Below, piece after piece: positions 654 through 62,927 of a stretch of DNA of 64,000 bases. The position numbers were made by a program, and so were the translations under genes. Source of the DNA: Candidatus Rokuibacteriota bacterium (GTDB lineage: Bacteria > Methylomirabilota > Methylomirabilia > Rokubacteriales > CSP1-6); NCBI GenBank assembly GCA_016184125.1, contig JACPDG010000043.1:15882-79881 (forward strand), read 5' to 3'. Each line of letters starts with the position of its first letter. Position 1 is the first letter of the stretch. The notes beneath the pieces were generated by a model. The model was given only the letters and a program-made list of their open reading frames with translations. It was not told where the DNA came from and did not search any database.

Positions 654-1571
654 ATGAACAACCAGATCGCGGTGCAGCTTCCGCCCGCAGGCCGACGAGG
701 CGAGACCCGAACCGCCTCCCTCCGGTACCTCTGGGGGATCGTCGTCCGGGGCGCCGGCGAAGAGGCACGACGTCACTATAGCTCGACCGTGCCGCGCGGC
801 CGCGAGGGGCGCCGCTCGCGCTCCGCCGTTCGTTTTCGCCGCACGCTCGACCGGGTCGGGCGGCTGATTCCTCCCGAGCGCCTGCTCGCCGTGCTCGTTC
901 GCGACGAGACGGCCCTGTTCACGGAGGATCTCCGCATCGTCGGCGCGCAGCGCGTCGTTCAGCCGGCGTGGCGCGGCAGCGCCGCGGAGCTGTTCCTCGC
1001 CACGCTGACGATCGCCCGTGAAGAACCCCACGCGACCGTCGCCCTGCTCCCGTCGGAGCACCTCACGGGGCACGAGGGCACCTTCATGGACTACGTCCGT
1101 CGGGCCGCGAGGGCCGTGGAGATCCGTCCTGACCTCGCCGTCGTGATCGGGGCACCCGCGTGCCGCGGCGGGCGCCCCCCCGCGTGGATCGAGCCCGGTG
1201 CCGCCGTCGAGGGCCTGGAGGGCTCCGCGATCCGATCGGTCGCGCGCTTCGTTCGCGACCCGTCACGCGCGGAGGTGTCGAGGCTGCTCGATGCGGGTGC
1301 GCTGGTCGCGACGCGGGTGATCGTGTCGAAGGTGTCGACGCTGCTGGCGCTCGGGCGCGCGCGCCTGCCGGACGTGCTCGAGACCCTCGAGCCGCTCCAG
1401 GATGCGGGGTCCGGCGCCGAGGAGGACCTCCTGCGCGAGGCCGTCTACGAGTGCATGCCGCGGGCGGACATCACGAGCGCGATTCCGCCGCGCGGTGACG
1501 GCTTCGCGGTCCTGCCGTTCCCGGAATTCCTCGAGCTCGAGGACGGCTCGCGCCTGCCGCTGGCGTCTTAA
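654..1571 (+). CDS. sugar-phosphate nucleotidyltransferase-like protein (degenerate ManC-like paralog)
   Basis: The central and C-terminal parts align with the intact mannose-1-phosphate guanylyltransferase-like gene at 26487-27431 (LLPSEHL...VVIG...WIEPG). The N-terminal G-x-G-x-R nucleotide-binding motif is degraded and low-complexity. Confidence 0.5.
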   Translation: MNNQIAVQLPPAGRRGETRTASLRYLWGIVVRGAGEEARRHYSSTVPRGREGRRSRSAVRFRRTLDRVGRLIPPERLLAVLVRDETALFTEDLRIVGAQRVVQPAWRGSAAELFLATLTIAREEPHATVALLPSEHLTGHEGTFMDYVRRAARAVEIRPDLAVVIGAPACRGGRPPAWIEPGAAVEGLEGSAIRSVARFVRDPSRAEVSRLLDAGALVATRVIVSKVSTLLALGRARLPDVLETLEPLQDAGSGAEEDLLREAVYECMPRADITSAIPPRGDGFAVLPFPEFLELEDGSRLPLAS

Positions 1572-1650
1572 TCAGAATGGGGGCCCCGAAATGGCCCCCA
1601 TACCCCCCGACGCTCGGACACGCCCCGGGAAACCCGGGGCGCGCCTCGAT
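1571..1650 (+). repeat. family A GC-rich dispersed repeat, copy A1
   Basis: ATGGGGGCCCCGAAATGGCCCCCATACCCCCC...CGCTCGG...CCCCGGGAAACCCGGGG...CTCGA; G-run/C-run hairpin plus CCCGGG-GAAA-CCCGGG hairpin. Sits immediately after the stop of the 654-1571 gene. Confidence 0.8.
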
Positions 1651-2326: not shown

Positions 2327-3726
2327 CACATGATCCGGGCCGACTTGACCGCCTGGATGCCGTACTTCGCGAGCTTGTTGTAGAGCGTCTTCAGGCTGAT
2401 GCCGAGCAGCTGGGCCGCGCGGCGCTTGTCCTGGTTCGTCTCCTCGAGGGCGCGCAGGATCGCTTCGCGCTCCATCTCGCGGATCGGCACGACGCTGGAG
2501 CGCTGCGGCGCCGGAGCCGGAGTCGCCGCATGCAGCATGGTCTCCGGCAGGTGCTCGGTGTCGATGAGTCCGGAGCCGGACAGCACCACGGCGCGCTGGA
2601 TCACGTTCCGCAGCTCGCGGACGTTGCCGGGCCAGTGGTAGCGCTCGAGCTCGCGCTCGGCCTCCGGCGTGAGGCCCCGCACCTGGCGGTTGTCCTGCCG
2701 GTTGAACTCGTCGATGAAGCTCCGCACCAGCAACGGGATGTCGTCCTTCCGTTCCCGGAGCCCCGGCAGGCGGATCGAGAACACGTTCAGCCGGTAGAAG
2801 AGGTCCTCGCGCAGCTGTCCCGCCGCGATCGCCTCGGTCGGGACGCGATTGGTCGCCGCGACGACCCGAACGTCCACCTGGATCTCGGCCTTGCCGCCGA
2901 CCCGCCGGAACGTCCCCTCCTGGAGCACGCGCAGGAGCTTGGCCTGCGTGTTGGAGTCCATCTCCGCGATCTCGTCGAGGAACAGCGTGCCGCCGTCGGC
3001 GAGCTCGAAGCAGCCGAGCCGGCGCTCCGTCGCGCCGGTGAAGGCGCCACGCTCGTGCCCGAAGAGCTCGCTCTCGATCAGGGTCTCCGGGATCGCGGCG
3101 CAGTTGATCGCCACGAACGGCTTCGCGCGGCGGTTGGACAGCTCGTGGATCGTCCGCGCGACGAGCTCCTTGCCCGTGCCGCTGTCCCCGAAGACCAGGA
3201 CGGGGGCCGTGCTCGTGGCCGCGAGCTCGATCCAGCGGTAGACCTCCTGCATGGTCTTCGACTGGCCGACGAGCTGCCCGAACGTCCCCTTCTGTCGCAG
3301 CTGGTGGCGCAGGAAGCTCACCTCGCGGGACAGCGACTCCTGCTCGATCGACTTCTCGAGCAGCACCTGGAGCCGGGTCGCGTCGACCGGCTTCGTGAGG
3401 TAATCGAACGCGCCGTGACGCATGGCCTCGACGGCCGTCTCCACGGTCGCGTGCCCGGTCACGAGCAGGACGACCGGCGGACGCCCCGTCTCGCGGAGCT
3501 TCTGAAGGAGGGTGAGTCCGTCCATCTCCGGCAGGACGAGGTCGGTCACGACGACGGCAGGATGCTGCGACTCCACGAGGGAGAGCGCTTCCTCGCCGGA
3601 GGACGCCGTTTCGACCTCGTAGCCCCACTGGCCAACCATGCGCGCGAGACCTTCGCGCTCGGCGGGCTCGTCATCGACGACGAGGACCTTGCCACTCTTC
3701 ATCTGGTCGCGTCGTGCCGGACTCAC
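2326..3726 (-). CDS. sigma-54-dependent response regulator (NtrC family: REC, AAA+ and HTH domains)
   Basis: VLVVDDEP receiver, GDSGTGKELVARTIH Walker A, GAFTGA sigma-54 contact motif, C-terminal Fis-type HTH. GTG start in the track; an alternative ATG (MKSGKV) lies 27 nt downstream. Confidence 0.9.
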   Translation of the reverse strand: MSPARRDQMKSGKVLVVDDEPAEREGLARMVGQWGYEVETASSGEEALSLVESQHPAVVVTDLVLPEMDGLTLLQKLRETGRPPVVLLVTGHATVETAVEAMRHGAFDYLTKPVDATRLQVLLEKSIEQESLSREVSFLRHQLRQKGTFGQLVGQSKTMQEVYRWIELAATSTAPVLVFGDSGTGKELVARTIHELSNRRAKPFVAINCAAIPETLIESELFGHERGAFTGATERRLGCFELADGGTLFLDEIAEMDSNTQAKLLRVLQEGTFRRVGGKAEIQVDVRVVAATNRVPTEAIAAGQLREDLFYRLNVFSIRLPGLRERKDDIPLLVRSFIDEFNRQDNRQVRGLTPEAERELERYHWPGNVRELRNVIQRAVVLSGSGLIDTEHLPETMLHAATPAPAPQRSSVVPIREMEREAILRALEETNQDKRRAAQLLGISLKTLYNKLAKYGIQAVKSARIM

Positions 3727-7525: not shown

Positions 7526-10500
7526 TCATCCGAAGTCGTGCGAGCGGACGGCCGGGGCGTTCACGCGGAGCGCGCGGACGCCGTCCGCGCGGATTGAAAT
7601 GACTCCATCCTGCGTTTGTAAGATCCCCTCGACCCAGAGGAACGGCGCGGCCACGAGCGTCAGGCGCTCGCGCGCGAACAGCGGCGGCTGGACGATCACG
7701 TTCGCGAGCCCCGTCTCGTCCTCGAGCGTCAGGAACACGAATCCCTTCGCGGTCCCCGGCCGCTGCCGCACGATGACGCCGCCCGCGATCGCGACGCGAG
7801 CGCCGTCGGCGAGACGGCGGAGATCGATCGCGCGGACCGCGCCGCGGCGGTCGAGCGCGTCCCGCAGCAGCGCGAGCGGGTGACGGCCGAGCGTCACGCC
7901 GGTGCCCGCGTAGTCGGCGGCGAGACGGTCGCGCGCCGCCATCTCCCGGAGCGGATGCGCGCGGGCCTCGCCGGCATCGGCGGGGTCGCGACCGTTCCCG
8001 CGCGCGCTCGCGGCGGTCCCGAACAGCGCGCCGGGCGACGGCACGGCCGCCTCCCACAGCATCGCGCGTCGCGTTCCGCCGAGCGAGGCGAGCGCGCCGA
8101 TCGCCGCGAGCTGCGTGAGCTCGTCGCGGTCGAGCCCGGTCCGGTGTGCGAGATCGTGCACGGAGGTGAACGGCCGCACGCGCCGCGCCGCGACGAGCGC
8201 CTGGCCCGCGCGCTCGCGCAGGCCCTTCACGTAGCGAAGCCCGAGCCGGACGGCGAAGCCGCCGCCGGACGCTTCGAGGGTGCAGCGCCAGTCCGATCGC
8301 GCGACGTCGACGGGCAGGATGCGCTGGCCGTGGCGCTGCGCGTCCTTCACGATCGTCGCCGGGTGGTAGAAGCCCATCGGCTGGTTGTTGAGCAGCGCCG
8401 CGTAGAACGCCGCGGGATGGCGCACCTTGAGGTAGGCGCTGGCGTACGCGAGCAGCGCGAAGCTCGACGCGTGCGCCTCGGGGAACCCGTAGAGCGCGAA
8501 CGACGTGATCGCGTGCACGATCTCGTCGGCGGCCGCGCCCTCGATCCCCTGGCGCGTGAGCCCGGCCCGCAGCTTCGTCTCGATCTCGACCATCCGCCGC
8601 TCGCTGCGCTTGAATCCGAACGCGCGCCGGAGCTCCTCCGCCTCGCTCGCGGTGAACCCGGCCGCGACCATCGCCATGCGGATGAGCTGTTCCTGGAAGA
8701 GCGGCACGCCGAGCGTGCGTTCGAGGATGGGCTGGAGCGAGGGGTGCGCGTACGTGACCGGCTCGCGGCCGCGCCGCCGCCGGATGTAGGGATGCACCAT
8801 GTTGCCGACGATCGGCCCGGGCCGGATGATCGCGACCTGCACGACGAGGTCGTAGAAGCGCTCGGGGTGCACGCGCGGGAGCGTCGCCATCTGCGCGCGG
8901 CTCTCGACCTGGAACACGCCGACCGTGTCCGCGGCCTGGAGACTGCGGTACACCTCCGGGTCGTCGGGCGGCAGGCGCGCCAGATCCACCTCCGCGCCCG
9001 TCTCGCGCACGAGCGCGAGCGCGTCCTGCAGCACGGACATCATGCCGAGCCCGAGCAGGTCGACCTTCACGATGCCGAGCGCGGCGCAGTCGTCCTTGTC
9101 CCACTGGATGACGACGCGGCCCGGCATGGTCGCGGGCTCGAGCGGCACCACGTCGTCGAGCCGCCCCGCGGCGATCACCATCCCGCCGGAGTGCTGGCCG
9201 AGATGACGCGGGAGATCCTGCACGGCGACCCAGAGGGCCGCGAACTTCCGGATGCGCGGATGGCGCGGATCGCAGCCCGCGTCGGCGAGGCGGTGGACGA
9301 GCGATGCACTCGGATCCTGGTAGCCCCAGGTGTCGACGAGCTTCGCGAGCCGGTCCTGGAGCTCCCCGGGGAGCCCGAGCGCCTTGCCGACCTCGCGCGC
9401 GGCGCTCCGACCGCGATACGTGATGACGTTCGCCGTCATGCCGGCGCCGAGACGCCCGTAGCGTCGGTAGACGTACTGGATCACGGCCTCTCGCCGCTCG
9501 CCGCTCGGCAGGTCGAGATCGATGTCCGGCCACTCGCCGCGCGCCTCGGACAGGAACCGCTCGAAGAGGAGATCCATGCCGACGGGATCGACGGCCGTGA
9601 TGCCGAGCGCGTAGCAGACGGCACTGTTGGCCGCCGATCCCCGCCCCTGCACGAGGATGTCGTTCGCGCGGCAGAAGTCGACGACGTCCCGCACGATGAG
9701 GAAGTACCCGGCGAGGTCGAGCCGGCCGATGATCGCGAGCTCGTGCTCGACCTGCCGGCGCGCGCGCGCCGCCAGCGGCCCGTGGCCGTACCGCTCGCGG
9801 ACGCCGCGCTCGACGAGCTCGGAGAGGTGTGCGAGCGGTGTCGAGCCCGGCGGCAGCGGGTAGTCCGGGAAGCGAGAGCCGAGGTCCTTGAGCGTGAACC
9901 CGAGCCGCATCGCGAGCTCCCCGGTCGCGTGGACGGCGTCCGGGAGGTCGGCGAAGATGCGGGTCATGTCCTCGCCGTTCCGCAGCCCGCGCTCCTCGTT
10001 CGCGAGGAGCGCGCGTCCTGCGTGGTCGAGGTCCGTCTTCTCGCGGATGCACGTGAACACGTCGGTCACCGCGCGCCCGGCCGGCCGCGCGTAGAGCGGC
10101 TGGTTGGCGGCGACGAGGCCGACGCCGGCGTCGCGCGCGAGCGTGACGAGGCGCTCGAGGCGCTTCTCCTGCTCGCGGTCGAACTGTCGCTGGACCTCGA
10201 CGAAGCACGAGGAGCGCCCGAAGATGCCGACGAGACGATCGAGCGTGGCGCGCGCGGCGGCGCGGTCGCCGGCCGCGACGGCGCGCGCGAGCGGTCCGTG
10301 CGCGCCGCCGGTGAGACAGACGAGTCCCGACGCGTACGCCTCGACGTCGTCCAGCGTGACGGCCGCCTGCCCCTTCGGCGCGGCGAGCTTGGCGCGCGTC
10401 AGGAGCCGGCACAGGTTCCGGTAGCCCTCCCGGTCCTCGACGAGCAGCGGCAGGCGCGAGCCGTCCGCGAGCGTCACCTCGCTGCCGACGAGCGCCTTGA

Positions 10501-10672
10501 GCCCCGCGTTCGCGGCGGCGCGATAGAACCGCGGCGCGCCGTACACGCCATCACGGTCGACGAGCGCGATCGCCGGCATCTCGAGACGCGCGGCCTCGGC
10601 GACGAGCGTCTCGGGCAGGTCGGCGGCCGCGAGAAACGAGAACGCGGACTGCGCGTGCAGCTCGATGAACAT
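7526..10672 (-). CDS. dnaE2: error-prone DNA polymerase DnaE2 (ImuC)
   Basis: MFIELHAQSAFSFL start, PHP domain and pol III alpha catalytic core; 1048 aa. Confidence 0.95.
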   Translation of the reverse strand: MFIELHAQSAFSFLAAADLPETLVAEAARLEMPAIALVDRDGVYGAPRFYRAAANAGLKALVGSEVTLADGSRLPLLVEDREGYRNLCRLLTRAKLAAPKGQAAVTLDDVEAYASGLVCLTGGAHGPLARAVAAGDRAAARATLDRLVGIFGRSSCFVEVQRQFDREQEKRLERLVTLARDAGVGLVAANQPLYARPAGRAVTDVFTCIREKTDLDHAGRALLANEERGLRNGEDMTRIFADLPDAVHATGELAMRLGFTLKDLGSRFPDYPLPPGSTPLAHLSELVERGVRERYGHGPLAARARRQVEHELAIIGRLDLAGYFLIVRDVVDFCRANDILVQGRGSAANSAVCYALGITAVDPVGMDLLFERFLSEARGEWPDIDLDLPSGERREAVIQYVYRRYGRLGAGMTANVITYRGRSAAREVGKALGLPGELQDRLAKLVDTWGYQDPSASLVHRLADAGCDPRHPRIRKFAALWVAVQDLPRHLGQHSGGMVIAAGRLDDVVPLEPATMPGRVVIQWDKDDCAALGIVKVDLLGLGMMSVLQDALALVRETGAEVDLARLPPDDPEVYRSLQAADTVGVFQVESRAQMATLPRVHPERFYDLVVQVAIIRPGPIVGNMVHPYIRRRRGREPVTYAHPSLQPILERTLGVPLFQEQLIRMAMVAAGFTASEAEELRRAFGFKRSERRMVEIETKLRAGLTRQGIEGAAADEIVHAITSFALYGFPEAHASSFALLAYASAYLKVRHPAAFYAALLNNQPMGFYHPATIVKDAQRHGQRILPVDVARSDWRCTLEASGGGFAVRLGLRYVKGLRERAGQALVAARRVRPFTSVHDLAHRTGLDRDELTQLAAIGALASLGGTRRAMLWEAAVPSPGALFGTAASARGNGRDPADAGEARAHPLREMAARDRLAADYAGTGVTLGRHPLALLRDALDRRGAVRAIDLRRLADGARVAIAGGVIVRQRPGTAKGFVFLTLEDETGLANVIVQPPLFARERLTLVAAPFLWVEGILQTQDGVISIRADGVRALRVNAPAVRSHDFG

Positions 10673-10674
10673 CT

Positions 10675-10752
10675 GATCATGGGGGGACTACCGAAGCCCC
10701 CCATACCCCCCGGCGCTCGGAGCGCCCCGGCCCAGCCGTGGCGCTCCTCGAC
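10675..10752 (+). repeat. family A repeat, copy A2, in the 100-bp gap between imuB and dnaE2
   Basis: TCATGGGGGGACTACCGAAGCCCCCCATACCCCCC...CGCTCGG...CTCCTCGA. Confidence 0.8.
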
Positions 10753-10774
10753 GACACGCTTCGTTCACGGGCCC

Positions 10775-12565
10775 TCAGTCGTACGCTCCGTCGAGATACC
10801 ACTCGCCGGTCATCCGGTCGCGCGCGAGACGGCACAGCATGCCGTCCGCGAGCGCGACGTCCCACTCCTCGCGCGCCCACCCGTTCGTCGTCCACCACTC
10901 GCCCGACGTGCGCCACGGCCCTGCGCTCGCGACGATCGCTTGCGGGCGTGACACACCACCGAGCGCGTCGTGGAACGCCACCTGCACCGGCGCGTCATCC
11001 ACGAGCGTGACGTCGACCCGGCGCGGCGGCCGAACACGCCGGAACGCGAGCGGCATGGTCGGCAGCGACCGCGGCGCGCCCGCATCAGCGTCCGCCCCGG
11101 ACGTCGATGGCACCGTGGCGTCACCGTCGCCGTCCCACACCGGCACCTCGCCGTCGTCGCCGTCCCGCCACGCGTCGTCGTCCGAGAGTTCGAGCAACAA
11201 TCGACCGCCGGGCGGTCGATTGTTGGCTCGAACTGAGTCGGCGACGCGCGGCGGCGCGAACGGCACGAGCGTCACCGGATCGGCGCGATGCGAGTCGAGG
11301 ATCACCGGCGAGCCGACGTTGTCGCGGCCGACGAGCGTCGCGAGCCGGACCAGCGTCTCGGTCAGGTCGCGCAGCGCGGGACCGGGACGTTCGCCGAGCC
11401 TCGCCTGCGCCGCCTCCGCGCGGACGGCGCGCGCGCTCACCGCGACGCGGGTGACCGGCGCCGAGGGTGGACGCGCCTCGAGCTCGAGCGCGACGAGGAC
11501 CAGCATCGGCCGTGGATCGCACGACGGCGACGCGAGCGCCACCGTGCGCACATCGTGGGCGCCGCTCGCGAGCGCGAGCTCGAGCCGCAGCGTGTCGGCC
11601 GACACGTGCCCGGCGGCAAGACGCGCCGTGAGCCGCTCGAGCAGCTGCCGGAGCATCGGCTCGAGCCCGCTCCACGTGTCGACCTCCCAGTCGAGCCCCT
11701 GCGCTTCCTGCCAGAACGGCGGCGGCGACCACGGCCGGAACGCTGTCCGGTCGTGGCCGAGCGCCTCGTCCTGCGCGTCGAGCCCTGCCCGGCCGAGCCG
11801 CGTTCCGAGGCCGTCACGAGGCAGCGCCGCGAGCTCGCCGAGCGTCACGACGCCCCAGCGCGCGAACGTCTCGGCGAGCGGCGGCGCCAGATCGAGGACG
11901 GCGAGCGGCACCGCGCCGAGCGCGTCGCGCTCACATCCAGGCGGGACGACGTGGCAGCGGGACGCGATGGACGTCTCCGCAGGCTCAGGGCCCGTGAACG
12001 CATCCGCGGATCGAGCCGCACGCAAACCCGAGGAGCGCCGCGGGTCCCCCGCGGCGCTTCCGAGCGCGGGGGGTTTGGGGGGCTTCGTTAGTCCCCCCAT
12101 GATGGAGAGTCCGGCGATGCGCGCGGCCGTCCGGGTCCCCGCCACGCCGACGGTCGCGTCGAGCCCGACGCCGCGCGCGGCGCGCACGAGCCGCTCCGCG
12201 ATGCGCCCGTCGTCTCCGAGCAATCGCGCGAGCCCGGCGAGGTCGACGGAGACGATCCCTGGCCCGCCGTCTTCCACGCGTGGCGACACCCCGAGCGCGG
12301 CTTCGAGCAGCGCGTGCTGCGCGAGCGTGGCGCGCTCGTCGGACACGGCGCGGACCGCGAGCGCGACGCAGCGGGCGCGTGCTTCGGTCTCCGTCATCCC
12401 CGGCACGACACCCGCGGCGCGAGCAGCATCGCTCGCCTCGACGATGCGCCGCGCGGGCGGCGTCCCCGTCACCACCGCCAGGGGTCGATCCCGCAGGTCC
12501 GGCTCGCACCGCGCGTGCGCGGCCGCGGCGAAGTGGTCGACGAGCAGGCAGCCGAAGCGGTTCAT
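10775..12565 (-). CDS. imuB: ImuB (Y-family polymerase-like mutasome subunit), carrying two in-frame repeat-derived insertions
   Basis: MNRFGCLLVDHFAAAA...UmuC-like N-terminal domain. ATGA overlap with the imuA stop. The ORF remains open through a family A copy (12039-12103) and a family B palindrome (11186-11236). Confidence 0.8.
   Translation of the reverse strand: MNRFGCLLVDHFAAAAHARCEPDLRDRPLAVVTGTPPARRIVEASDAARAAGVVPGMTETEARARCVALAVRAVSDERATLAQHALLEAALGVSPRVEDGGPGIVSVDLAGLARLLGDDGRIAERLVRAARGVGLDATVGVAGTRTAARIAGLSIMGGLTKPPKPPALGSAAGDPRRSSGLRAARSADAFTGPEPAETSIASRCHVVPPGCERDALGAVPLAVLDLAPPLAETFARWGVVTLGELAALPRDGLGTRLGRAGLDAQDEALGHDRTAFRPWSPPPFWQEAQGLDWEVDTWSGLEPMLRQLLERLTARLAAGHVSADTLRLELALASGAHDVRTVALASPSCDPRPMLVLVALELEARPPSAPVTRVAVSARAVRAEAAQARLGERPGPALRDLTETLVRLATLVGRDNVGSPVILDSHRADPVTLVPFAPPRVADSVRANNRPPGGRLLLELSDDDAWRDGDDGEVPVWDGDGDATVPSTSGADADAGAPRSLPTMPLAFRRVRPPRRVDVTLVDDAPVQVAFHDALGGVSRPQAIVASAGPWRTSGEWWTTNGWAREEWDVALADGMLCRLARDRMTGEWYLDGAYD
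11186..11236. repeat. family B 50-bp palindrome, copy B1, inside imuB
   Basis: GAGTTCGAGCAACAATCGACCGCC-GG-GCGGTCGATTGTTGGCTCGAACT; encodes ...ANNRPPGGRLLLE... in frame. Confidence 0.8.
12039..12103 (-). repeat. family A repeat, copy A3 (reverse orientation), inside imuB
   Basis: Reverse complement reads CCATCATGGGGGGACTAACGAAGCCCCCCAAACCCCCCGCGCTCGGAAGCGCC; encodes ...SIMGGLTKPPKPPALGSAAG... in frame. Confidence 0.75.
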
Positions 12566-13146
12566 GCGCTGAACCGCGCGGCTCCGGGCCACGCGCGGGC
12601 ACGCGGATGGCGTGCCGCGTGCGGCCGCAGGAGGTGCAGCCGCGTGCGCATGGCGGCGAGTCGCGTCGCTCGCGTCCCCGGCCCGGTCCACTCGAGCGCG
12701 TCCTGCACGGTCTCGATCACGAGCGCGGCGCCGGAGCCGGCGACATGACGGCGGCCGAGCAGGACCAGGGCTGCGCGCGTGCGTCGCACCGCGAGCTTGA
12801 GCCGGAACGCGGTCTCGAGCGAGAGCCGCGGCGGCACGTCTCCCGTGTCGAGCGCGACGAGCGCGAACCCGGGGCGACGGACGAGCACGTCGGTCGCGCG
12901 CAGCGCGACCGACCGGCGTCCGGCGCACCGCACCCACAGCAGGCGCCGGAGGTCGACGCCCGCACGCGCGGCCGCGGCGGGATCGAACGCCTCGTCGGTG
13001 TCGACGAGCCCCGCCACGCCGCCGTTCGCGGTGGCGCGCGCAAGCCACGCGAACAGGAGACTCGTGCGGCCGGAGGAGAGCCGGCCGACGATCTCGGTGA
13101 TCTCCGAGAGAGGCGGAAACTCGGGATACATCGCATTTACCTGCAC
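12562..13146 (-). CDS. imuA: ImuA (RecA-fold SOS mutasome component)
   Basis: GRLSSGRTSLLFAWLARATANGGVAGLVDTDEAFDP is a RecA/SulA-like P-loop-degenerate core. Sits upstream of imuB-dnaE2. Confidence 0.8.
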   Translation of the reverse strand: MQVNAMYPEFPPLSEITEIVGRLSSGRTSLLFAWLARATANGGVAGLVDTDEAFDPAAAARAGVDLRRLLWVRCAGRRSVALRATDVLVRRPGFALVALDTGDVPPRLSLETAFRLKLAVRRTRAALVLLGRRHVAGSGAALVIETVQDALEWTGPGTRATRLAAMRTRLHLLRPHAARHPRARAWPGAARFSA

Positions 13147-15224: not shown

Positions 15225-16478
15225 ATGCCGAGGTCCCGCTGTCCCGTCGTGGTGCTCACCGCGCTGCTGCTGGCGGTGACGGGCTGCGCGCGCGTCCATC
15301 CCCATCTCGCGCTGCCCGCGATGGCCCTCGGCGAACCATCGTTCTTCCCGACGATCGAGGCGTACACCGCGGCGCCGATCGTCGGCGGCAACACCGTCGA
15401 GGTGCTCCTGAACGGCGAGGAGATCTTCCCGGCGGTCATCGACGCGGTGCGCGCCGCCCGGCGCACGATCACGTACGCGCAGTACTACTGGGAGGACGGC
15501 CCGGTGGCGGGCGAGCTCGCCGAGGCGATCGCCGAGCGCTGCCGCGCCGGTGTCGGCGGCAACATCCTGCTCGACTCGTTCGGGACCCTCGCAATGCCCA
15601 CGGAGCACGTCGACCTGATGAAGCGCGCCGGCTGTCACGTCGCGTTCTTCCGGCCGCTGACCCGCACGATCTTCGGCCGAGCGAACAACCGCAATCACCG
15701 GCGCGTCCTCGTCGTCGACGGGCGGGTCGGGTTCATCGGCGGCTCGGGCGTGAGCCGCAAGTGGATGGGCAATGGCCGCATCGCCGACCACTGGCGCGAC
15801 ACCGACGTGCGCCTGGAGGGGCCGGTCGTCGAGTACCTGCAGGGCGCCTTCGCCGAGAACTGGCTCGAGGCCACCGGCGTGGTGCTTGGCGGTGAGGCAT
15901 ACTTCCCCCGCCCGCTCGCCCCGCGCGGATCCGTCTACGCGCAGATCGTGCGCAGCTCGCCCGCCGGCGGCAGCTTCGCGATGTACACGACGTTCCTGCT
16001 CGCCATGGCGTCGGCGCGGCGCTCGGTCTACATCACGAACCCGTACTTCGTGCTCGACGAGGCGATGGCGAACGCGCTGCTGAGCGCCGTGCGCCGTGGC
16101 GCGCGCGTCGTGGTCCTCGTGCCCGGCGCGATCGACCACAACATCGTCCGGCAGGCCAGCCGCGGGCAGTTCGGGCGGATGTTGCGAGGCGGCGTCGAGA
16201 TCTACGAGTATCGGGCGGGGCTGCTGCACGCCAAGACCATGGTGATCGACGGCGTCTGGTCGACGGTGGGCAGCACCAACCTCGACAACCGGTCGTTCGC
16301 CCTGAACGAGGAGCTGAACGTCGTGATCTACAGCGCCACGGTGGCGCGGCGATTCGAGGCGATCTTCCTGGACGACCTCGCCCACTCGGGGAAGGTCGAG
16401 TACCGGGACTGGCGCAAGCGCGGACTCGGGGACCGCGTGCTGGAGCTCCTGTCGTGGCCCATCCGCGACTGGCTCTGA
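15225..16478 (+). CDS. cardiolipin synthase / phospholipase D family lipoprotein
   Basis: Two HKD motifs (HRRVLVVDG..., LHAKTMVIDG...); lipobox LLLAVTGC. Confidence 0.9.
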   Translation: MPRSRCPVVVLTALLLAVTGCARVHPHLALPAMALGEPSFFPTIEAYTAAPIVGGNTVEVLLNGEEIFPAVIDAVRAARRTITYAQYYWEDGPVAGELAEAIAERCRAGVGGNILLDSFGTLAMPTEHVDLMKRAGCHVAFFRPLTRTIFGRANNRNHRRVLVVDGRVGFIGGSGVSRKWMGNGRIADHWRDTDVRLEGPVVEYLQGAFAENWLEATGVVLGGEAYFPRPLAPRGSVYAQIVRSSPAGGSFAMYTTFLLAMASARRSVYITNPYFVLDEAMANALLSAVRRGARVVVLVPGAIDHNIVRQASRGQFGRMLRGGVEIYEYRAGLLHAKTMVIDGVWSTVGSTNLDNRSFALNEELNVVIYSATVARRFEAIFLDDLAHSGKVEYRDWRKRGLGDRVLELLSWPIRDWL

Positions 16479-16535
16479 GAACACGGCGAGGGGGACGGCG
16501 CCCGGGATGGCCCCCCGCCGCCCGACCGTTCGCCG

Positions 16536-16793
16536 TTACACGCGATAGCGTCCCGGCGCCACGAGGCGGTAGAGCGCGAGGATGACGATCGCGCCCACCA
16601 CCGCCATCAGAAAGCCTGCCGCCTCGCCTTCCCGGTAGAACCCGAGCACCCGGCCCAGCCAGCCCCCGAGCATCGCGCCGACGATCCCGAGGATGATGGT
16701 CAGGATGATCCCGCCCGGATCGCGGCCCGGCATGATGAACTTCGCCACGATCCCGACGACGAGTCCGAACACGATCCACAACAGGATGTCCAT
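16536..16793 (-). CDS. GlsB/YeaQ/YmgE family (transglycosylase-associated) membrane protein
   Basis: MDILLWIVFGLVVGIVAKFIMPGRDPGGIILTIILGIVGAMLGGWLG; ~85 aa. Confidence 0.7.
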   Translation of the reverse strand: MDILLWIVFGLVVGIVAKFIMPGRDPGGIILTIILGIVGAMLGGWLGRVLGFYREGEAAGFLMAVVGAIVILALYRLVAPGRYRV

Positions 16794-20370: not shown

Positions 20371-20467
20371 TCGAGCCGCGCCCCGGGTCCACGGGTGCGT
20401 CCGCGCACCCCCCCGGGGCGCGCGCGAGCGCGGGGGGCTTGGGGGGCATCGATAGTCCCCCCATGAA
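20371..20467 (-). repeat. family A repeat, copy A6 (reverse), with an extra palindromic insert GGGTGCGTCCGCGCACCC
   Basis: Reverse complement reads GTTCATGGGGGGGACTATCGATGCCCCCCAAGCCCCCCGCGCTCG...CCCGGG. The same GGGTGCGTCCGCGCACC module recurs at 19357-19400 and 42580-42605. Confidence 0.75.
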
Positions 20468-21196: not shown

Positions 21197-21198
21197 AA

Positions 21199-22872
21199 TC
21201 AACCCAAGCGTTTGTAGCGCAGGCGGTGCGGCCGGTCCGCCTCGGCACCGAGGCGGCGCCGCCGATCGGCCTCGTAGTCCTGGTAGTTGCCCTCGAACCA
21301 GACGGTCCGGCCCTCGTCCTCGAGCGCCAGCATGTGCGTCGCGATGCGGTCGAGGAACCACCGGTCGTGGCTGATCACGACGACGCAGCCCGCGAAGTCG
21401 AGCAGCGCGTCCTCGAGCGCGCGCAGGGTGTCGACGTCGAGATCGTTCGTCGGCTCGTCGAGCAGGAGGAGATTCGCGCCGCTCCTGAGCGTCTTCGCGA
21501 GGTTGAGCCGGTTGCGCTCGCCGCCGGAGAGCTCGCCCACGCGCTTCTGCTGGTCGGTGCCGCGGAATCCGAACGAGGCGACGTACGCGCGCGACTGCAT
21601 GCTCCGGCCACCGACGGTGAACGTGTCGTGCCCGCCCGAGGTCTCCTCCCACACCGTGCGCGCCGCGTCCAGCGACTCACGCGTCTGGTCGACGTACCCG
21701 ATCTTCACGGAGGCGCCCACGCGCAGCGCGCCGCCGTCCGGCGGTTCCTGGCCCACGATCATCCGGAACAGGGTCGTCTTGCCGGCGCCGTTCGGACCGA
21801 TGACGCCGACGATGCCGCCGCGCGGGAGCTTGAACGTGAGGTCGTCGATGAGCACGCGGTCGCCATAGCCCTTCACGAGGTGATCAGCCTCGACGACGAC
21901 GTCGCCGAGCCGCGGCCCGGGCGGGATGGAGATCTCGAGTCCCGTCTCGCGCTTCTCGGTCCCCTCGGACAGGAGCGTGTCGTAGGCCTGCAGCCGCGCC
22001 TTCGACTTGGCCTGCCGGGCGCGCGGCGCCATGCGCACCCACTCGAGCTCGCGCTCGAGCGTGCGCCGGCGCGCGAGGTCGGCCTTTTCCTCCCGCGCGA
22101 GCCTCTGGCGCTTCTGGTCGAGCCAGGACGAGTAATTCCCCTCCCACGGGATGCCGTACCCGCGGTCGAGCTCCAGGATCCAGCCGGCGACGTTGTCGAG
22201 GAAGTAGCGGTCGTGGGTCACCGCGACGACGGTGCCCGGATACTCCTTGAGGAACCGCTCGAGCCAGGCCACGCTCTCCGCATCGAGGTGGTTCGTCGGC
22301 TCGTCGAGCAGCAGCATGTCCGGGCGCGAGAGCAGCAGCCGGCACAGTGCGACGCGCCGCCGCTCGCCGCCCGAGATCGTCGCGACCTCGGCGTCACCGG
22401 GCGGCACGCGCAGCGCGTCCATGGCGAGCTCGACGGTGCGATCCACCTCCCAGCCGTTCACCGCCTCGATCCGGTCCTGCAGTCGCGCCTGCTCCTCGAG
22501 CAGCTTGTCCATGTCCGTATCGGACATCTCCTCGGCGAAGCGCGCGCTGACGTCTTCGAAGCGCTGGAGCAGCGCCCGCGTCTCGGCGACGCCTTCCTCG
22601 ATGTTGCCGCGCACGTCCTTCGCGGGATCGAGCGCCGGTTCCTGGGGCAGGAAGCCGACCCGCAGGCCCTTCGCCGGAAACGCCTCGCCGAGGAAGTCCC
22701 GGTCGGCACCGGCCATGATCCGCAGCAGCGACGACTTCCCCGCCCCGTTCGCGCCGAGCACGCCGATCTTGGCGCCGTGGAAGAACGACAGGTAGATGCC
22801 GCGCAGGATCTCGCGCTTCGGCGGGACGACCTTGCGAAGGTCCTTCATGACGAACGCGTACTCGCCGGCCAT
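21199..22872 (-). CDS. ettA: energy-dependent translational throttle protein EttA (ABC-F ATPase)
   Basis: [23 protein letters not shown]...two ABC cassettes (GANGAGKS / [13 protein letters not shown] signatures) with the arm insertion; 557 aa. Confidence 0.95.
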
Positions 22873-29302: not shown

Positions 29303-29378
29303 TTCATGGGGGGACTATCGAAGCCCCCCAATCCCCCCGCGCTCGGAGCCCCCCGGCAAAGCCGTGGCGCTCCTCGAC
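29303..29378 (+). repeat. family A repeat, copy A9
   Basis: TTCATGGGGGGACTATCGAAGCCCCCCAATCCCCCCGCGCTCGGAGCCCCCCGGCAAAGCCGTGGCGCTCCTCGACC. Confidence 0.85.
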
Positions 29379-34138: not shown

Positions 34139-36174
34139 TGCTGACGGGACGCGGCGCCACGCGGCGCGGCAGCTTCCTGATCGCCGTCGGCGTGTGCGCC
34201 CTGATGGGCACGGTGTGGTTCCTCGCGCCGGCGATGCTCACGCAGGCCGACTTCGCGCTGTACGACCAGCATTTCCGCTGGCGCGGCGCCCGGCCGGGTC
34301 ACCCGCAGGTCGCGATCGTCGCCATCGACGAGCCGAGCCTGCGCGCCATCGGGCGATGGCCCTGGCCGCGCACGGTGCTCGCCGAGCTCATCCGGCGCCT
34401 CGACGAGGCGGGCGCGGCGGCGATCGGCGTCGACGTGATCCTGAACGAGCCGGAGCGGAGCGGCGAGCTCGAGGCGGCGACGCGGCTGCGCGAGCGCCTG
34501 CGGGCGGTGGGCGCGCCGGCCGCCGTGCTGCGCGAGGTCGACGCGACGATCCAGGCCGCTGATCACGACCGGATGCTGGCCGACGCGATCGCCGCGAGCG
34601 GCCGCGTCGTCCTTCCGAGCCTGTTCAACGTCAGTATTGAGCCGCCCAAGCAGGCGCCGGAACGCGTTGGCCAGCCGTTCAAGTCCGCGCTCGTGCGGTT
34701 CAAGCAGTACGACGACCGCGGCCTGTTCCCACCGGTCAACGCGGACAGCGTCGGCCTGCCGATCCCACCGCTGCTGGCTGCGGCCCAGGGAGTCGGCCAC
34801 GTCTACATGCTCGCCGACTCGGACGGCACGACGCGGTGGGAGGCGCTCGCCATCGAGTACCGCGGGCACTACTATCCCAGCCTTGCGGTGGAGACGGTGC
34901 GCGTCGCCGCCGGGCTCGAGCCCACCGCCCTGACGCTCGACTTCGGCACCGCGCTCGTGCTCGGCGATCTCGAGATCCCCATCGACGCGCGGGCACGAGT
35001 GCTCATCGGATACGCCGGCCCCGTGCACTCCTTCCCGCACCATTCCGCCGCGGATGTCCTGGCCGGCCGCGTCCCGCCCGAGCGCCTCCGCGATCGCATC
35101 GTGTTCGTCGGCGCGACGGCGGAAGGCACGTACGACCTGCGAGTCACGCCGTTCTCGCCCGTCCTCCCCGGCGTCGAGAAGCACGCGAACGTCGCGGCCA
35201 ACATCCTCGACGGGCGCTTCCTCGTGCGGCCGCCGCTGGTCGAGCTCTTCGAGGTGCTGGCCGCCGTGGCGCTGCCGTTCCTGCTCGCCTGGCTGCTCCC
35301 GCGCCTGCGTCCGATCCCGAGCGTCGGGGTGACGCTCGTCCTCGGCGCCGCGGTCCTCGGCGGGGCGCACCTGGCCTTCCGGCAGGGCCTCTGGCTGCCC
35401 GCGGTCTACCCGGCGGTCGCGATCGCCGTCACGTTCGTCGGCGTGACCGTCTTTCGGTTCTTCACCGAGGAGCGCCAGCGGCTCTGGACGAAGCGCGCGT
35501 TCCAGCAGTACGTCAGCCCCGAGGTCGTCGACCGGATCGTCGAGGATCCCGCCGCGCTCCAGTTCGGGGGCGAGGTGCGGAACCTGACCGTCCTCTTCGT
35601 CGACATCCGCGACTTCACGGGCTTCACCGAGCGGCACGATCCCCACGAGGTCGTGGCGATGCTGCGCGAGCACTTCACGCGCCTCACGAACCGCGTCCTC
35701 GAGGAGGGCGGCACGCTCGACAAGTACATCGGGGACGCGATCATGGCGATCTTCGGTGCGCCGGTCCCGGCCGCGGACCACGCGGAGCGGGCGTGCCGCG
35801 CCGCGTGGAGAATGGTCGAGGAGGCGGAACGCCTGCGAGACAAGTGGCAGGGCGAGGGGCGCGAGCCGTTCCGGATCGGTGTCGGGATCAACACGGGCGA
35901 CATGGTCGTCGGCAACCTCGGCTCCGAGCAGCTCTTCACGTACACCGTCGTCGGCGACGAGGTGAACCTCGGCGCACGGATCGAGACGCTCAACAAGGAG
36001 CACGCGACGACGCGCCCGATCATCATCAGCGAGTCGACGTACGAGGCCGCGCGTAACGCGATCGAGGCGCGGGTGCTCGGGGAGGTCAAGGTGCGCGGCA
36101 AGACGCGGCCCGTCGTGATCTACGAGCTCACCGGTCTTCGGTCGCCGACGCCCGAGCCGCAGGTCCCCGCGTAA
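34138..36174 (+). CDS. CHASE2 sensor domain plus class III adenylate/guanylate cyclase
   Basis: N-terminal CHASE2 (periplasmic) with TM helices, then a cyclase homology domain (VLFVDIRDFTGFTE...GDAIMAIFG...GINTGDMVVGNLGS). ATG overlaps the metH TGA (ATGA). Confidence 0.9.
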
Positions 36175-36180
36175 CGCGCG

Positions 36181-36313
36181 GGGGCGGGGGACGGGGCGGG
36201 GGCCCCTCGGAAATCCGCGCGCGGACCACGGCCGGCGTCCCACAACAGCCGGACTTCGAGGTCGACCTTAGCCCAACGGATTTCCGAGGGGCCCCCGCCC
36301 CGTCCCCCGCCCG
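36181..36313. repeat. TIR-bearing MITE-like element E1 (37-bp terminal inverted repeats GGGGCGGGGGACGGGGCGGGGGCCCCTCGGAAATCCG)
   Basis: Perfect inverted termini flank a ~60-bp core; starts 7 nt after the cyclase stop. Confidence 0.7.
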
Positions 36314-36820: not shown

Positions 36821-36831
36821 CGGCCTCGCGC

Positions 36832-39321: not shown

Positions 39322-39323
39322 GA

Positions 39324-62468: not shown

Positions 62469-62581
62469 ACGCCGAGTCGTTCACGGGGGATCAGCCACGA
62501 CGGGGTCGCGAGCCGTTCTTCTCTCGAGCAGCTTGGAGACGCCTTCGACGACGCGCTCGAACAGCTTCCGGAGGCCGCCTC

Positions 62582-62629
62582 AGTTCGAGCCAACAATCGA
62601 CCGCCCGGCGGTCGATTGTTGCTCGAACT
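62582..62629. repeat. family B palindrome, copy B4
   Basis: AGTTCGAGCCAACAATCGACCGCC-CG-GCGGTCGATTGTTGCTCGAACT; ends 2 nt before the stop of the minus-strand lipoprotein gene. Confidence 0.8.
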
Positions 62630-62630
62630 C

Positions 62631-62927
62631 TCAGCGGCGCGCTTCCAGGCAGTCCCGGTAGATGAAGTTCCGGATGTCCCGCTCGATCTGCGCCTTGCTC
62701 GATGCCGTGGCGACCGTCCACTCCCGTGCGTCGGTCCACGGCGTCCCCGACCACGGGGCCGACGCGGTCGTTTCCTCTGGGCTCGTCGCCCGCCGAGCCG
62801 CACGGTCGCACTCGGCCGAACGATCCCCGGCCGCGAACGCCGACACGTCGGAGGTCCGATCACGCTCGATCACGGCGCACGCGCTCACGGACGCGACCAG
62901 CACGATCAGGCCGACGATTCGCTTCAT
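62631..62927 (-). CDS. small hypothetical lipoprotein
   Basis: MKRIVGLIVLVASVSAC lipobox; ~98 aa. Confidence 0.4.
   Translation of the reverse strand: MKRIVGLIVLVASVSACAVIERDRTSDVSAFAAGDRSAECDRAARRATSPEETTASAPWSGTPWTDAREWTVATASSKAQIERDIRNFIYRDCLEARR

What the first reader, a model, noticed from the sequence alone, without database searches (positions are those of the whole stretch)
10775..12565. imuB retains an intact reading frame through two in-frame repeat insertions (one family A, one family B)
The 596-aa imuB ORF is longer than typical ImuB (~500-530 aa). It contains a reverse-oriented family A unit at 12039-12103, translated as ...IAGLSIMGGLTKPPKPPALGSAAGDPRRSSG... at the boundary after the UmuC-like catalytic-fold domain. 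It also contains a family B palindrome at 11186-11236, translated as ...VRANNRPPGGRLLLELSDDD... in the acidic C-terminal region. Both insertions are multiples of 3 and introduce no stops, so the mutasome subunit is presumably still expressed with two extra linker peptides. A perfect 23-bp-stem hairpin inside an mRNA coding region could also attenuate translation, or create a fragile or recombinogenic DNA site inside a DNA-damage-response operon.
Basis: partly seen in the sequence, partly recalled or inferred. Interest (0 to 1): 0.7.

Follow-up and report, generated by a model that had tools for sequence, protein, structure and literature searches.

The report
Mobile hairpin repeats inserted in-frame in imuB
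Two copies of small hairpin-forming repeat elements that litter the genomes of the uncultured soil phylum Rokubacteria have landed inside the imuB gene without breaking its reading frame, adding floppy peptide loops to the protein, much as the "Rickettsia palindromic elements" do in Rickettsia.

Summary
The window comes from a Candidatus Rokubacteria MAG. It carries imuA-imuB-dnaE2 on the minus strand. ImuB is 596 aa, against a median of 508 and a maximum of 557 in 114 orthologs.

Two segments are lineage-specific, frame-preserving insertions of interspersed repeats:
- A family A unit at 11984-12103. It is 120 nt (40 codons), not the 65 nt reported.
- A family B palindrome at 11186-11236 (17 codons). 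It is 98% identical to an intergenic copy at 62578-62637. Its stem is 22 bp with one bulge, not a perfect 23 bp.

A third copy (family A, 10677-10778) sits exactly between the imuB stop and the dnaE2 start. A syntenic relative has none of the three.

AlphaFold places both inserts in low-confidence coil between confidently folded domains. ImuB keeps 96% of conserved positions, and dN/dS is 0.29.

Family A is phylum-wide: 137 covariance-model hits in other Rokubacteria contigs, with covarying hairpins. It is mostly at gene ends. It is occasionally in frame inside other genes, for example three units in a CopA ATPase.

Best reading: tolerated insertions of REP/MITE-like elements into flexible loops, an RPE-like phenomenon. 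This is a new member of a known kind, of moderate interest. Effects on expression are untested.

The parts
10775..12565 (-). imuB CDS (596 aa; NCBI MBI2216981.1). [quoted passage not shown]
   Evidence: ORF and translation. Pfam IMS and IMS_C. 346 homologs, many named ImuB. In the profile alignment to E. coli DinB, the catalytic D8/D103/E104 correspond to L8/G103/I104.
11984..12103 (-). Family A repeat unit inserted in frame, sense orientation. It is 120 nt = codons 155-194 (IMGGLTKPPKPPALGSAAGDPRRSSGLRAARSADAFTGPE).
   Evidence: Covariance-model hit 12023-12104, 93.1 bits. The tail was aligned to other copies. The segment is absent from 114 orthologs and from L001 DNA. pLDDT is 41-53, coil.
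11186..11236 (-). Family B palindrome inserted in frame, 51 nt = codons 444-460 (SVRANNRPPGGRLLLEL). The palindrome proper is 11187-11234. It lies in the linker between the RecA-NT-like motif and the ImuB-C domain.
   Evidence: 98% identical over 59 nt to the copy at 62574-62632 (I5). Hairpin dG is -49.9 kcal/mol, z-score -8.4. It is absent from L001 and from P0004. It lies in the segment 448-503 with pLDDT below 50.
10677..10778 (+). Family A unit (antisense to the operon) that fills the whole imuB-dnaE2 spacer. Its tail CTCAG contains the imuB stop codon. Its head TCATG lies 5 nt from the dnaE2 start.
   Evidence: Covariance-model hit of 85.5 bits. In L001 the stop and start overlap (TGATG). 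In the contig of P0004 the spacer is 32 nt.
12562..13131 (-). imuA (RecA-like). The start codon is uncertain (13131 or 13146).
   Evidence: Pfam RecA, E = 4.6e-10. The gene order matches L001.
7526..10672 (-). dnaE2 (error-prone Pol III alpha homolog), 1048 aa.
   Evidence: Pfam PHP, DNA_pol3_alpha, finger, HHH_6 and OB. 88% amino-acid identity to the L001 ortholog, dN/dS 0.18.
62578..62637 (+). Intergenic family B copy that is nearly identical to the one in imuB. It sits in an A-A-B repeat cluster (62302-62637).
   Evidence: (I5).
11075..11182 (-). Acidic low-complexity expansion of the ImuB linker (residues 462-497). It is lineage-specific but is not a copy of family A or B.
   Evidence: Occupancy is 0-50% in orthologs. 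pLDDT is below 50.

Best explanation
Family A and family B are short, non-coding, hairpin-forming interspersed repeats of the REP/MITE kind, specific to Rokubacteria. Family A is about 100-120 nt, with two conserved G+C hairpins and a variable tail. Family B is a 48-nt palindrome.

Three copies have entered the imuA-imuB-dnaE2 operon of this lineage. Two landed inside imuB. Each adds a multiple of three bases, and each is stop-free in the reading frame in use.

The family A copy lies in the surface loop that follows the last palm helix. This is the loop equivalent to 'SDMNKPNG' of E. coli DinB. It has lost its catalytic role in the dead polymerase ImuB. The family B copy lies in the naturally variable, disordered linker between the RecA-NT-like (ImuA-binding) motif and the C-terminal ImuB-C domain.

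The gene therefore still encodes a foldable ImuB carrying two extra Gly/Pro/Ser/Ala-rich flexible peptides. The in-frame state is what purifying selection lets through, not a designed property. About 60-70% of family A copies are stop-free in any given frame, so roughly one insertion in five is frame-compatible.

Shown: the insertions, their family membership, their absence in relatives, and their position in predicted disordered segments. Inferred: that the protein is made and works, that the elements are mobile, and how they move.
For: Insertions:
- 114 orthologs lack both segments.
- DNA alignment to the syntenic L001 shows three clean extra blocks.
- L001 has no family A or B copy in 11.6 kb.
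- The closest relative, P0004, lacks the family B peptide and has only 32 nt between imuB and dnaE2.

Family membership:
- The family B copy is 98% identical to an intergenic copy.
- The family A copy scores 93 bits with the covariance model.

Nature of the family:
- There are 114 + 23 full-length family A hits in other contigs, almost all of them Rokubacteria/Methylomirabilota.
- 92% of cells are paired, 14 of 20 pairs show double changes, and 0 of 500 shuffles reach that.
- Copies occur in both orientations relative to genes, in head-to-tail arrays, and never between divergent genes in 96 classified cases.

Tolerance in ImuB:
- In AlphaFold2 the flanks have pLDDT of at least 90. Insert A scores 41-53, and insert B lies within a stretch below 50.
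- The profile alignment to DinB places insert A in the post-palm loop.
- The domain scheme of ImuB is taken from PMC6511836.
- 95.8% of the columns that are at least 90% conserved are kept, against an ortholog range of 91-98%.
- dN/dS is 0.29 for imuB, 0.26 for imuA and 0.18 for dnaE2.

Recurrence elsewhere:
- A Rokubacteria CopA-type ATPase (L082) carries three in-frame family A units. They appear as pure gaps against A. fulgidus CopA.
- A ferritin-like ORF in L023 carries one unit.

Frame compatibility: each of the six frames is stop-free in 59-72% of units.
Against: - There is no expression or protein data.
- In a 71% G+C genome long open frames are cheap. The antisense frame of imuB is also open for 577 codons, so an intact ORF is weak evidence of function.
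- dN/dS and conservation reflect the whole history since the split from L001, not the time since the recent family B insertion.
- The junction copy removes the stop/start overlap with dnaE2.
- The position of the beta-clamp motif lacks its tryptophan in this subclade. Some loss of function cannot be excluded.
- No transposase or empty-site allele was found, so mobility is inferred from the distribution only.
Confidence: 0.75

Rival explanations
1. imuB (or the whole mutasome cassette) is no longer under selection in this lineage. The three repeat copies are neutral debris in a decaying locus, and they kept the frame by luck.
For: - Three copies lie within 1.4 kb, whereas only these 2 of 17 repeat sites in the window are intragenic.
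- The imuB/dnaE2 translational overlap seen in L001 is destroyed.
- The clamp-motif tryptophan is missing (QARLGE against the consensus Q.GLW).
- Open frames are common at 71% G+C.
- The chance that two unselected insertions both preserve the frame is about (1/3 x 0.65)^2, roughly 0.05, which is not negligible.
Against: - ImuB keeps 95.8% of highly conserved columns, inside the ortholog range. dN/dS is 0.29, similar to imuA.
- There is no stop or frameshift in any of the three genes.
- The clamp-motif change is shared with relatives that have no insertions (P0002, P0003, P0021), so it predates them.
- The same kind of in-frame insertion occurs in an otherwise perfectly conserved CopA.
Confidence: 0.13
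2. The inserted elements have been co-opted. One version is that the -50 kcal/mol hairpin and the junction copy throttle translation of imuB and dnaE2, and so tune SOS mutagenesis. The other is that the added peptides give ImuB a new interaction surface.
For: - The hairpin inside the coding region is very stable.
- Elsewhere, family A copies in sense orientation start 2-10 nt after the stop codon of the upstream gene in 32 of 41 cases, including 6 of 6 convergent gene pairs. This suggests that the family interacts with translation or with mRNA 3' ends.
- The junction copy replaces a coupled stop/start.
Against: - The insertions are confined to a single MAG among everything searched.
- The family B copy is 98% identical to another copy, so it is very recent and has had no time for co-option.
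- The peptides are predicted to be disordered and differ from those added to CopA, which uses the opposite strand of the element.
- The imuB copies are not in the stop-proximal position.
Confidence: 0.08
3. The segments are native lineage-specific linkers, or assembly artefacts, rather than insertions of repeats.
For: The ImuB C-terminal linker is naturally variable in length. MAG assemblies can be chimeric at repeats.
Against: - The segments match the repeat families base for base, including hairpins and tails.
- They are absent from all orthologs.
- Both flanks of each insert are collinear imuB sequence in the same frame. A mis-join at a repeat would not produce that.
Confidence: 0.03

Closest known systems
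Rickettsia palindromic elements (RPEs; Ogata et al. 2000, 2002, as summarised in PMC10969869)
   Same: Both are short palindromic or hairpin repeats found between genes and also inserted in frame inside unrelated conserved protein genes. The inserts add peptides at positions compatible with the fold. Here that holds for ImuB, for a CopA ATPase (three units) and for a ferritin-like ORF.
   Different: - There is no sequence relationship, and the host is a free-living, high-G+C, large-genome phylum.
- Only about 3% of family A sites are intragenic (3 of 97 testable sites elsewhere, 1 of about 14 sites in the window). For RPEs nearly half are intragenic.
- Both strands of the element are used as coding sequence, so there is no single conserved element-encoded peptide.
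- Units form head-to-tail arrays.
REP/BIME elements of gamma-proteobacteria (mobilised by RAYT transposases)
   Same: Both are G+C-rich imperfect palindromes with compensatory changes. Both are extragenic at gene 3' ends and operon junctions, avoid divergent promoters, occur in either orientation, and are clustered or mosaic (A-A-B clusters at 42568-42761 and 62302-62637). Many copies lie within a few nt of a stop codon. From my own knowledge, REPs within about 15 nt of a stop codon reduce expression through ribosome stalling (Liang, Rudd and Deutscher 2015). I could not check this in the paper library.
   Different: The family A unit is longer, with two hairpins plus a tail. There is no GTAG head motif. 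No RAYT gene was looked for or found. In-frame intragenic copies are not a recognised REP feature.
Intragenic MITE-type repeats that fuse to host ORFs (ERIC, BOX, Nezha and others; review PMC10969869)
   Same: Both are small non-autonomous repeats that are open in one or more frames and can create in-frame fusions.
   Different: Family A has no clear terminal inverted repeats or target-site duplication. Family B is one continuous palindrome. No parent insertion sequence is known.
MIRUs of mycobacteria (intercistronic repeats with small ORFs coupled to the flanking genes; from my own knowledge)
   Same: Both are intercistronic within operons. The head carries an ATG, GTG or TTG (84 of 95 copies) that lies 0-5 nt after the upstream stop codon.
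   Different: The ORF opened by that ATG has no conserved length, frame or end. A coupled mini-ORF is therefore not supported.

Membership tests
[quoted passage not shown] | Y-family polymerase fold (IMS palm/fingers plus little finger) | tested here: met
   Pfam IMS, E = 1.2e-18, and IMS_C. The ortholog profile matches DinB structures, E = 8.7e-19. AlphaFold pLDDT is at least 90 over these domains.
[quoted passage not shown] | Loss of the catalytic acidic residues | tested here: met
   In the profile alignment, DinB D8/D103/E104 align with L8/G103/I104 of the window protein.
[quoted passage not shown] | Gene order imuA-imuB-dnaE2 | tested here: met
   A RecA-like gene lies upstream and a DnaE2-type gene downstream on the same strand. 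The same order is found in L001 and in the contig of P0004.
[quoted passage not shown] | RecA-NT-like motif followed by the beta-rich ImuB-C domain (PMC6511836) | tested here: met
   The model has helix 401-412 plus strand 419-422, then a beta-rich domain at 508-595 with pLDDT above 90. The C-terminal W/G/D/Y columns are invariant.
[quoted passage not shown] | Beta-clamp-binding motif (Q..LW/F type) | tested here: inconclusive
   The ortholog consensus is GQGGLWQPP. The window has AQARLGERP, without the aromatic residue, as do P0002, P0003 and P0021.
RPE-like protein-coding palindromic repeats | A repeat family present both in intergenic DNA and in frame within several unrelated genes | tested here: met
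   ImuB (window), CopA at two sites with three units (L082), and a ferritin-like ORF (L023).
RPE-like protein-coding palindromic repeats | Insertions lie at positions compatible with the host protein fold | tested here: met
   The ImuB inserts are in low-pLDDT coil between confident domains. The CopA inserts are pure gaps between blocks that align fully to a solved CopA.
RPE-like protein-coding palindromic repeats | Homology to the Rickettsia RPE families, or a conserved element-encoded peptide | tested here: not met
   Rfam and literature searches found no relationship. ImuB uses the sense strand (IMGGLTKPPKPPALGS...), whereas CopA and L023 use the antisense strand (EERPGSPGALPSAGG...).
REP/BIME (RAYT-associated) | Extragenic palindromes at gene 3' ends and operon junctions, in clusters | tested here: met
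   0 divergent contexts in 96, and A-A-B clusters.
REP/BIME (RAYT-associated) | Conserved GTAG head and a cognate RAYT (Y1 transposase) gene | not tested
   The head is (C)ATGGGGGG, with no GTAG.
MITE | Terminal inverted repeats and a target-site duplication | tested here: inconclusive
   The family A ends show only a weak 7-nt similarity (TCATGGG against the reverse complement TGAGGGC). The junction copy is compatible with a duplicated TGA, but other copies are not consistent with this. Family B is a single palindrome bounded by CTCAG...CTCAG.
MIRU-like intercistronic coupled mini-ORF | A small ORF whose start and stop overlap those of the flanking genes | tested here: not met
   The head ATG is conserved, but ORF lengths range from 5 to more than 225 codons, and the frame differs between copies.

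The most novel reading that the evidence does not exclude
Family A (with family B as a lineage-specific module) is a previously undescribed, phylum-wide repeat system of Rokubacteria with two properties. First, it is placed with near-nucleotide precision against gene boundaries. Sense-oriented copies begin 2-10 nt after the stop codon in about 80% of cases, even between convergent genes. This implies either a role at translation termination or mRNA 3' ends, or an insertion mechanism that reads gene ends. Second, it recurrently becomes coding sequence in conserved proteins (ImuB, CopA and others). That would make Rokubacteria a second, free-living example of the 'protein-coding palindrome' phenomenon so far regarded as peculiar to Rickettsia. 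In this reading, the triple hit on the SOS mutasome operon would also change how much ImuB and DnaE2 are made.
Probability: 0.3. Interest if true: 0.65.

Novelty: new member of a known kind. Interest (0 to 1): 0.45.

Why it matters
In-frame insertion of selfish palindromic repeats into conserved proteins is textbook only for Rickettsia. Here it appears in a free-living, high-G+C, large-genome soil phylum, in ImuB and independently in a CopA ATPase. This suggests that the process is a more general route by which mobile DNA adds linkers and loops to proteins.

It is also a practical warning. These repeats break assemblies, lengthen ORFs (for example the 70-codon tail on msrQ), donate apparent start codons, and inflate protein lengths in Rokubacteria MAG annotations.

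For the mutasome, the insert positions mark two places in ImuB that tolerate 17-45 extra residues: the post-palm loop, and the linker before ImuB-C. That is useful for tagging or engineering a protein that has no solved structure.

Tried and rejected
- **Strain polymorphism.** The genome contigs and metagenome-contig scans with ImuB found no close relative apart from L001, P0002 and P0004. They returned only two distant loci.
- **Closest relative.** DNA of the closest relative (P0004, JGI 3300056388) could not be fetched.
- **Gene calls for the window's own contig.** ImuB is not in the gene-position index, so no gene calls were available for the window's contig.
- **Insert peptide search.** Searching the protein database with the insert peptide failed at the word filter. 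One search was wasted.
- **Rfam.** There was nothing at gathering threshold. In E-value mode only meaningless sub-threshold hairpin matches appeared, such as plant and animal miRNA precursors and blv_FSE. A known RNA family is rejected.
- **Viral contigs.** There was one match for each pattern. One is an unrelated AT-rich terminator-like hairpin, and the other has no covariance-model hit. A phage origin is rejected.
- **Family B outside the window.** There were no matches in 99 other loci, about 700 kb. Family B seems confined to this lineage.
- **Coupled mini-ORF (MIRU-like).** Rejected, because the ORF has no conserved end or frame.
- **Specific target motif at the head (YTGAN, IS200/IS605-like).** Rejected as a general rule. 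Stop trinucleotides are enriched only when a gene reads into the head (83%), not when a gene reads away from it (36%, about chance).
- **Literature.** No description of Rokubacteria or Methylomirabilota repeats was found in the held library.
- **Solved structures.** No solved ImuB structure was found. The nearest match is DinB.
Full report
**What the locus is.** The window has 71% G+C. The exact ImuB protein is NCBI MBI2216981.1 from a 'Candidatus Rokubacteria bacterium' MAG, on a 90-kb contig. Three genes lie on the minus strand:
- a RecA-like imuA (about 13131..12562);
- imuB (12565..10775, 596 aa; Pfam IMS at residues 9-151 and IMS_C at 296-387);
- a DnaE2-type Pol III alpha (10672..7526).

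A profile of 115 ImuB sequences aligns to E. coli DinB structures. The DinB catalytic residues D8/D103/E104 correspond to L8/G103/I104 here, as expected for the catalytically dead ImuB.

**Checking the observation.** Both repeat families exist and are far beyond chance. The quoted peptides are in the translation.

In an alignment with 114 orthologs, window residues 154-198 are matched by 0-5% of sequences and residues 451-467 by 2-4%. The protein is 596 aa, against a median of 508.5 and a maximum of 557.

The best available relative is L001, a JGI metagenome contig. Its gene order is the same (GFO/IDH/MocA oxidoreductase, imuA, imuB, dnaE2, LigD primase-polymerase). Its ImuB is 75% identical over aligned codons. 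A DNA alignment with L001 shows three clean extra blocks in the window:
- the family A unit in imuB;
- the family B palindrome in imuB;
- a second family A unit exactly between the imuB stop and the dnaE2 start. In L001 these overlap as TGATG.

L001 contains no family A or B copy in 11.6 kb. The closest ortholog by sequence is P0004 (82%). It lacks the family B peptide, and its contig has only 32 nt between imuB and dnaE2. That contig begins right at the family A site and its DNA could not be fetched.

Two corrections to the finding follow:
- The family A unit spans 12103..11984 (120 nt, codons 155-194), not 12039-12103.
- The family B stem is 22 bp with one bulged C, not a perfect 23 bp. It is still extremely stable (-49.9 kcal/mol, z-score -8.4).

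The remaining excess length is an acidic low-complexity stretch (residues 462-497).

**What the repeats are.** The family A core is (C)ATG-G6-loop-C6, then A-N-N-C6, an invariant CGCTCG, a second 11-13-bp G+C hairpin, and CCTCG. A variable tail follows, which in this genome ends TTCACGGGCYCTSAG.

A covariance model built on 12 copies finds 14 strong and about 4 weak copies in the 64-kb window. Almost all were Rokubacteria or Methylomirabilota MAGs. The model confirms 114 + 23 full-length units in those contigs. It rejects the few hits in other phyla (Polyangium, Salsuginibacillus, Armatimonadetes).

Across 113 distinct units, 92% of cells are paired and 14 of 20 pairs show double (compensatory) changes. 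No shuffle out of 500 reaches these values, and the slid controls fall to 47-62% paired. The hairpins are therefore under constraint.

The units lie in both orientations relative to neighbouring genes. They form head-to-tail arrays with periods of 88-124 nt. In 96 classified contexts they never sit between divergent genes. This is the profile of a REP/MITE-like DNA element, not of an orientation-dependent RNA gene. Rfam has no match, and viral contigs do not carry the family. I found no description of it in the held literature.

Family B is a 48-nt palindrome bounded by CTCAG. It has four copies in the window and none in about 700 kb of other Rokubacteria DNA. It occurs fused to family A units in A-A-B clusters (42568-42761 and 62302-62637). 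The imuB copy is 98% identical to the copy at 62578-62637, so that insertion is recent. The imuB family A copy is 84-94% identical to its nearest relatives, so it is probably older.

**Is ImuB still intact?** AlphaFold2, run with the 115-sequence alignment, gives a mean pLDDT of 80.8:
- Residues 1-150 and 200-385 (polymerase-like core) and 508-595 (beta-rich ImuB-C domain) are mostly at or above 90.
- Insert A (about 158-199) is coil at pLDDT 41-53.
- Insert B lies inside the segment 448-503, which is below 50.

By the DinB alignment, insert A sits in the loop after the last palm helix, where DinB has 'ASDMNKPNG'. From my own knowledge, this loop contacts the incoming nucleotide in active Y-family enzymes. 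That constraint is absent in ImuB.

By the domain scheme of Timinskas and Venclovas (PMC6511836), insert B lies between the RecA-NT-like motif and ImuB-C. In the model the motif is helix 401-412 plus strand 419-422. This linker varies in length in all orthologs.

ImuB keeps the consensus residue at 95.8% of 166 columns that are at least 90% conserved (orthologs: median 97.6%, minimum 91.1%). dN/dS against L001 is 0.29, compared with 0.26 for imuA and 0.18 for dnaE2.

These data argue for a still-selected gene, but they average over a long history. In a genome this G+C-rich an open frame alone is weak evidence, because the antisense frame is open for 577 codons.

**Is the in-frame state special?** Each of the six frames is stop-free in 59-72% of family A units. 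Roughly one random insertion in five would therefore preserve a host frame. Seeing only frame-preserving copies inside a gene is what purifying selection would leave.

I scored 240-nt flanks with a codon log-likelihood trained on the window's long genes. In-frame flanks average 34. The 99th percentile of wrong frames is 16.
- In the window, exactly 2 of 17 repeat sites are 'in frame through', and both are in imuB.
- In other Rokubacteria loci, 3 of 97 testable units pass.

Two of those three units belong to one gene in L082. It is a CopA-type P1B ATPase (Pfam HMA, E1-E2_ATPase, Hydrolase). It carries one unit after the DKTGT region and two tandem 93-nt units just before the MVGDGINDAP hinge. 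Against A. fulgidus CopA (3j09) the protein aligns in three blocks. The inserts appear as pure gaps, at query residues 489-517 and 687-742.

The third unit is in a ferritin-like/DUF455 ORF in L023. These copies are read on the antisense strand of the element (EERPGSPGALPSAGG...). ImuB reads the sense strand (IMGGLTKPPKPPALGS...).

In-frame capture of family A by conserved genes is thus rare (about 3% of sites) but recurrent. It tends to hit the same accessory gene more than once.

**An unexpected property of the family.** When a gene reads into the head of a unit (41 cases outside the window), the G-run starts 0-12 nt after that gene's stop codon in 32 cases, with a mode of 6 nt. This holds in 6 of 6 convergent pairs and in 21 of 23 cases with no clear gene beyond the unit. 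The stop codons are TGA, TAG or TAA, and the spacers differ in sequence.

The window behaves the same way:
- Units at 1574, 39325 and 21197 begin 6-7 nt after stop codons.
- Heads of antisense units abut start codons at 29307, 20463, 52659 and 10672.

Repeat-free convergent spacers of about 58 nt exist (16478-16536). Genome compaction alone therefore does not explain the flush placement. A fixed target motif and a coupled mini-ORF were both tested and not supported. I leave this unexplained. The candidates are a role of the stop-proximal hairpin in termination or mRNA stability, as reported for E. coli REPs (my own knowledge), or an insertion mechanism tied to gene ends.

**Mechanism and rivals.** My best reading, at confidence 0.75, is as follows. 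REP/MITE-like elements of Rokubacteria inserted three times in this operon. The two intragenic copies survive because they preserve the frame and fall in a functionless surface loop and in a disordered linker. ImuB is made with two extra flexible peptides.

The main rival (0.13) is that the cassette is decaying and the insertions are neutral. The evidence for it:
- three hits lie within 1.4 kb;
- the imuB/dnaE2 overlap is lost;
- the clamp-motif position reads QARLGE instead of Q.GLW.

That last change is shared by insertion-free relatives.

Co-option of the hairpins as expression throttles, or of the peptides as new surfaces (0.08), is not excluded, but nothing supports it directly. A native linker or an assembly artefact (0.03) is contradicted by the base-for-base match to the families and by the collinear flanks.

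**Comparison with known systems and verdict.** Functionally this is the RPE phenomenon of Rickettsia (PMC10969869), carried by an unrelated element family whose genomic habits are those of REP/BIME elements. It is not a member of the RPE families: there is no homology, no single encoded peptide, and a low intragenic fraction. Membership in the RAYT-mobilised REPs or in MITEs could not be established, because there is no GTAG head, the TIR and TSD evidence is inconclusive, and no transposase search was made.

I rate the imuB finding a new member of a known kind, with interest 0.45. The wider pattern is a phylum-wide family placed flush against stop codons and recurrently captured as coding sequence. 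It is the more novel lead, and it deserves a genome-wide census.

Noticed in passing
window 10677-10778: A third repeat copy (family A, antisense to the operon) fills the whole imuB-dnaE2 spacer. The imuB stop codon lies inside its CTCAG tail, and the dnaE2 ATG lies 5 nt from its head. In relatives the two genes overlap (TGATG) or are 32 nt apart, so translational coupling is probably altered.
   Followed up: partly
loci L004-L099 (flanks in alignment A6); window 1571-1580, 39319-39331, 21197-21201: Family A units in sense orientation begin 2-10 nt after the stop codon of the upstream gene in 32 of 41 cases. This holds for any stop codon and for variable spacers, and also between convergent genes. 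On the tail side the spacing is loose. No target motif or conserved mini-ORF explains it.
   Followed up: partly
L082 1216-3822 (JACPCW010000110.1): A CopA-type copper ATPase of another Rokubacteria MAG carries three family A units in frame on the element's antisense strand. One is at 2685-2763 and two tandem 93-nt units are at 3267-3443. They appear as pure gaps against a solved CopA.
   Followed up: yes
L023 1428-2555 (JACQFL010000046.1): A 375-aa ORF with a ferritin-like/DUF455 C-terminal half contains one family A unit in frame (EERRGSPAALPSVGGSGG). It may be a fusion of two ORFs through the element.
   Followed up: partly
window 42538-43383 (-): The msrQ-like ORF (Pfam Ferric_reduct at residues 45-160) runs on for about 70 codons through a family B unit and two family A-like units before its stop. 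This is a C-terminal extension made entirely of repeats. msrP lies upstream, and another family B copy (44399-44458) overlaps the stop codon of the response-regulator gene.
   Followed up: partly
window 29304-29307, 20463-20466, 52657-52668: The palindromic CATG at the family A head supplies or abuts the predicted ATG start of genes reading away from the element: a UGSC-family gene, an unknown 233-aa ORF, and a 'Virulence_fact' gene. Start-codon calls next to these repeats may be unreliable.
   Followed up: no
window 11390-11407 (ImuB residues 387-392): At the position of the beta-clamp-binding motif the ortholog consensus is Q.GLW, but this protein has QARLGE. Its closest relatives also lack the aromatic residue (QARFGE, QGGLGQ, QARLGQ). 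The subclade may bind the clamp differently or weakly.
   Followed up: no
window 36168-36326 and 36693-36821: Two copies of a different element of about 130-160 nt, each itself a long hairpin (35-50-nt arms, 90-100% complementary). They lie in inverted orientation 380 nt apart, between convergent genes. They are unrelated to families A and B.
   Followed up: no
L016 1821-1902 and L083 124-205: In two different MAGs an oppD-like ABC-transporter ATPase ORF is in frame with the ATG of a family A head just upstream. This is either an old orthologous insertion or a hotspot, and it could give an N-terminal extension.
   Followed up: no
window 11075-11182 (ImuB residues 462-497): An Asp/Gly-rich low-complexity expansion (DDDAWRDGDDGEVPVWDGDGDATVP...) lies next to the family B insert. 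It is absent from most orthologs and accounts for the rest of the extra length.
   Followed up: no
contig of P0004 (JGI 3300056388; no DNA held): The contig of the closest ImuB relative starts 152 nt upstream of the codon equivalent to window residue about 197. That is at the family A site, and its gene call starts at an internal ATG. This hints at a repeat-induced assembly break, and possibly at an insertion at the same site.
   Followed up: no
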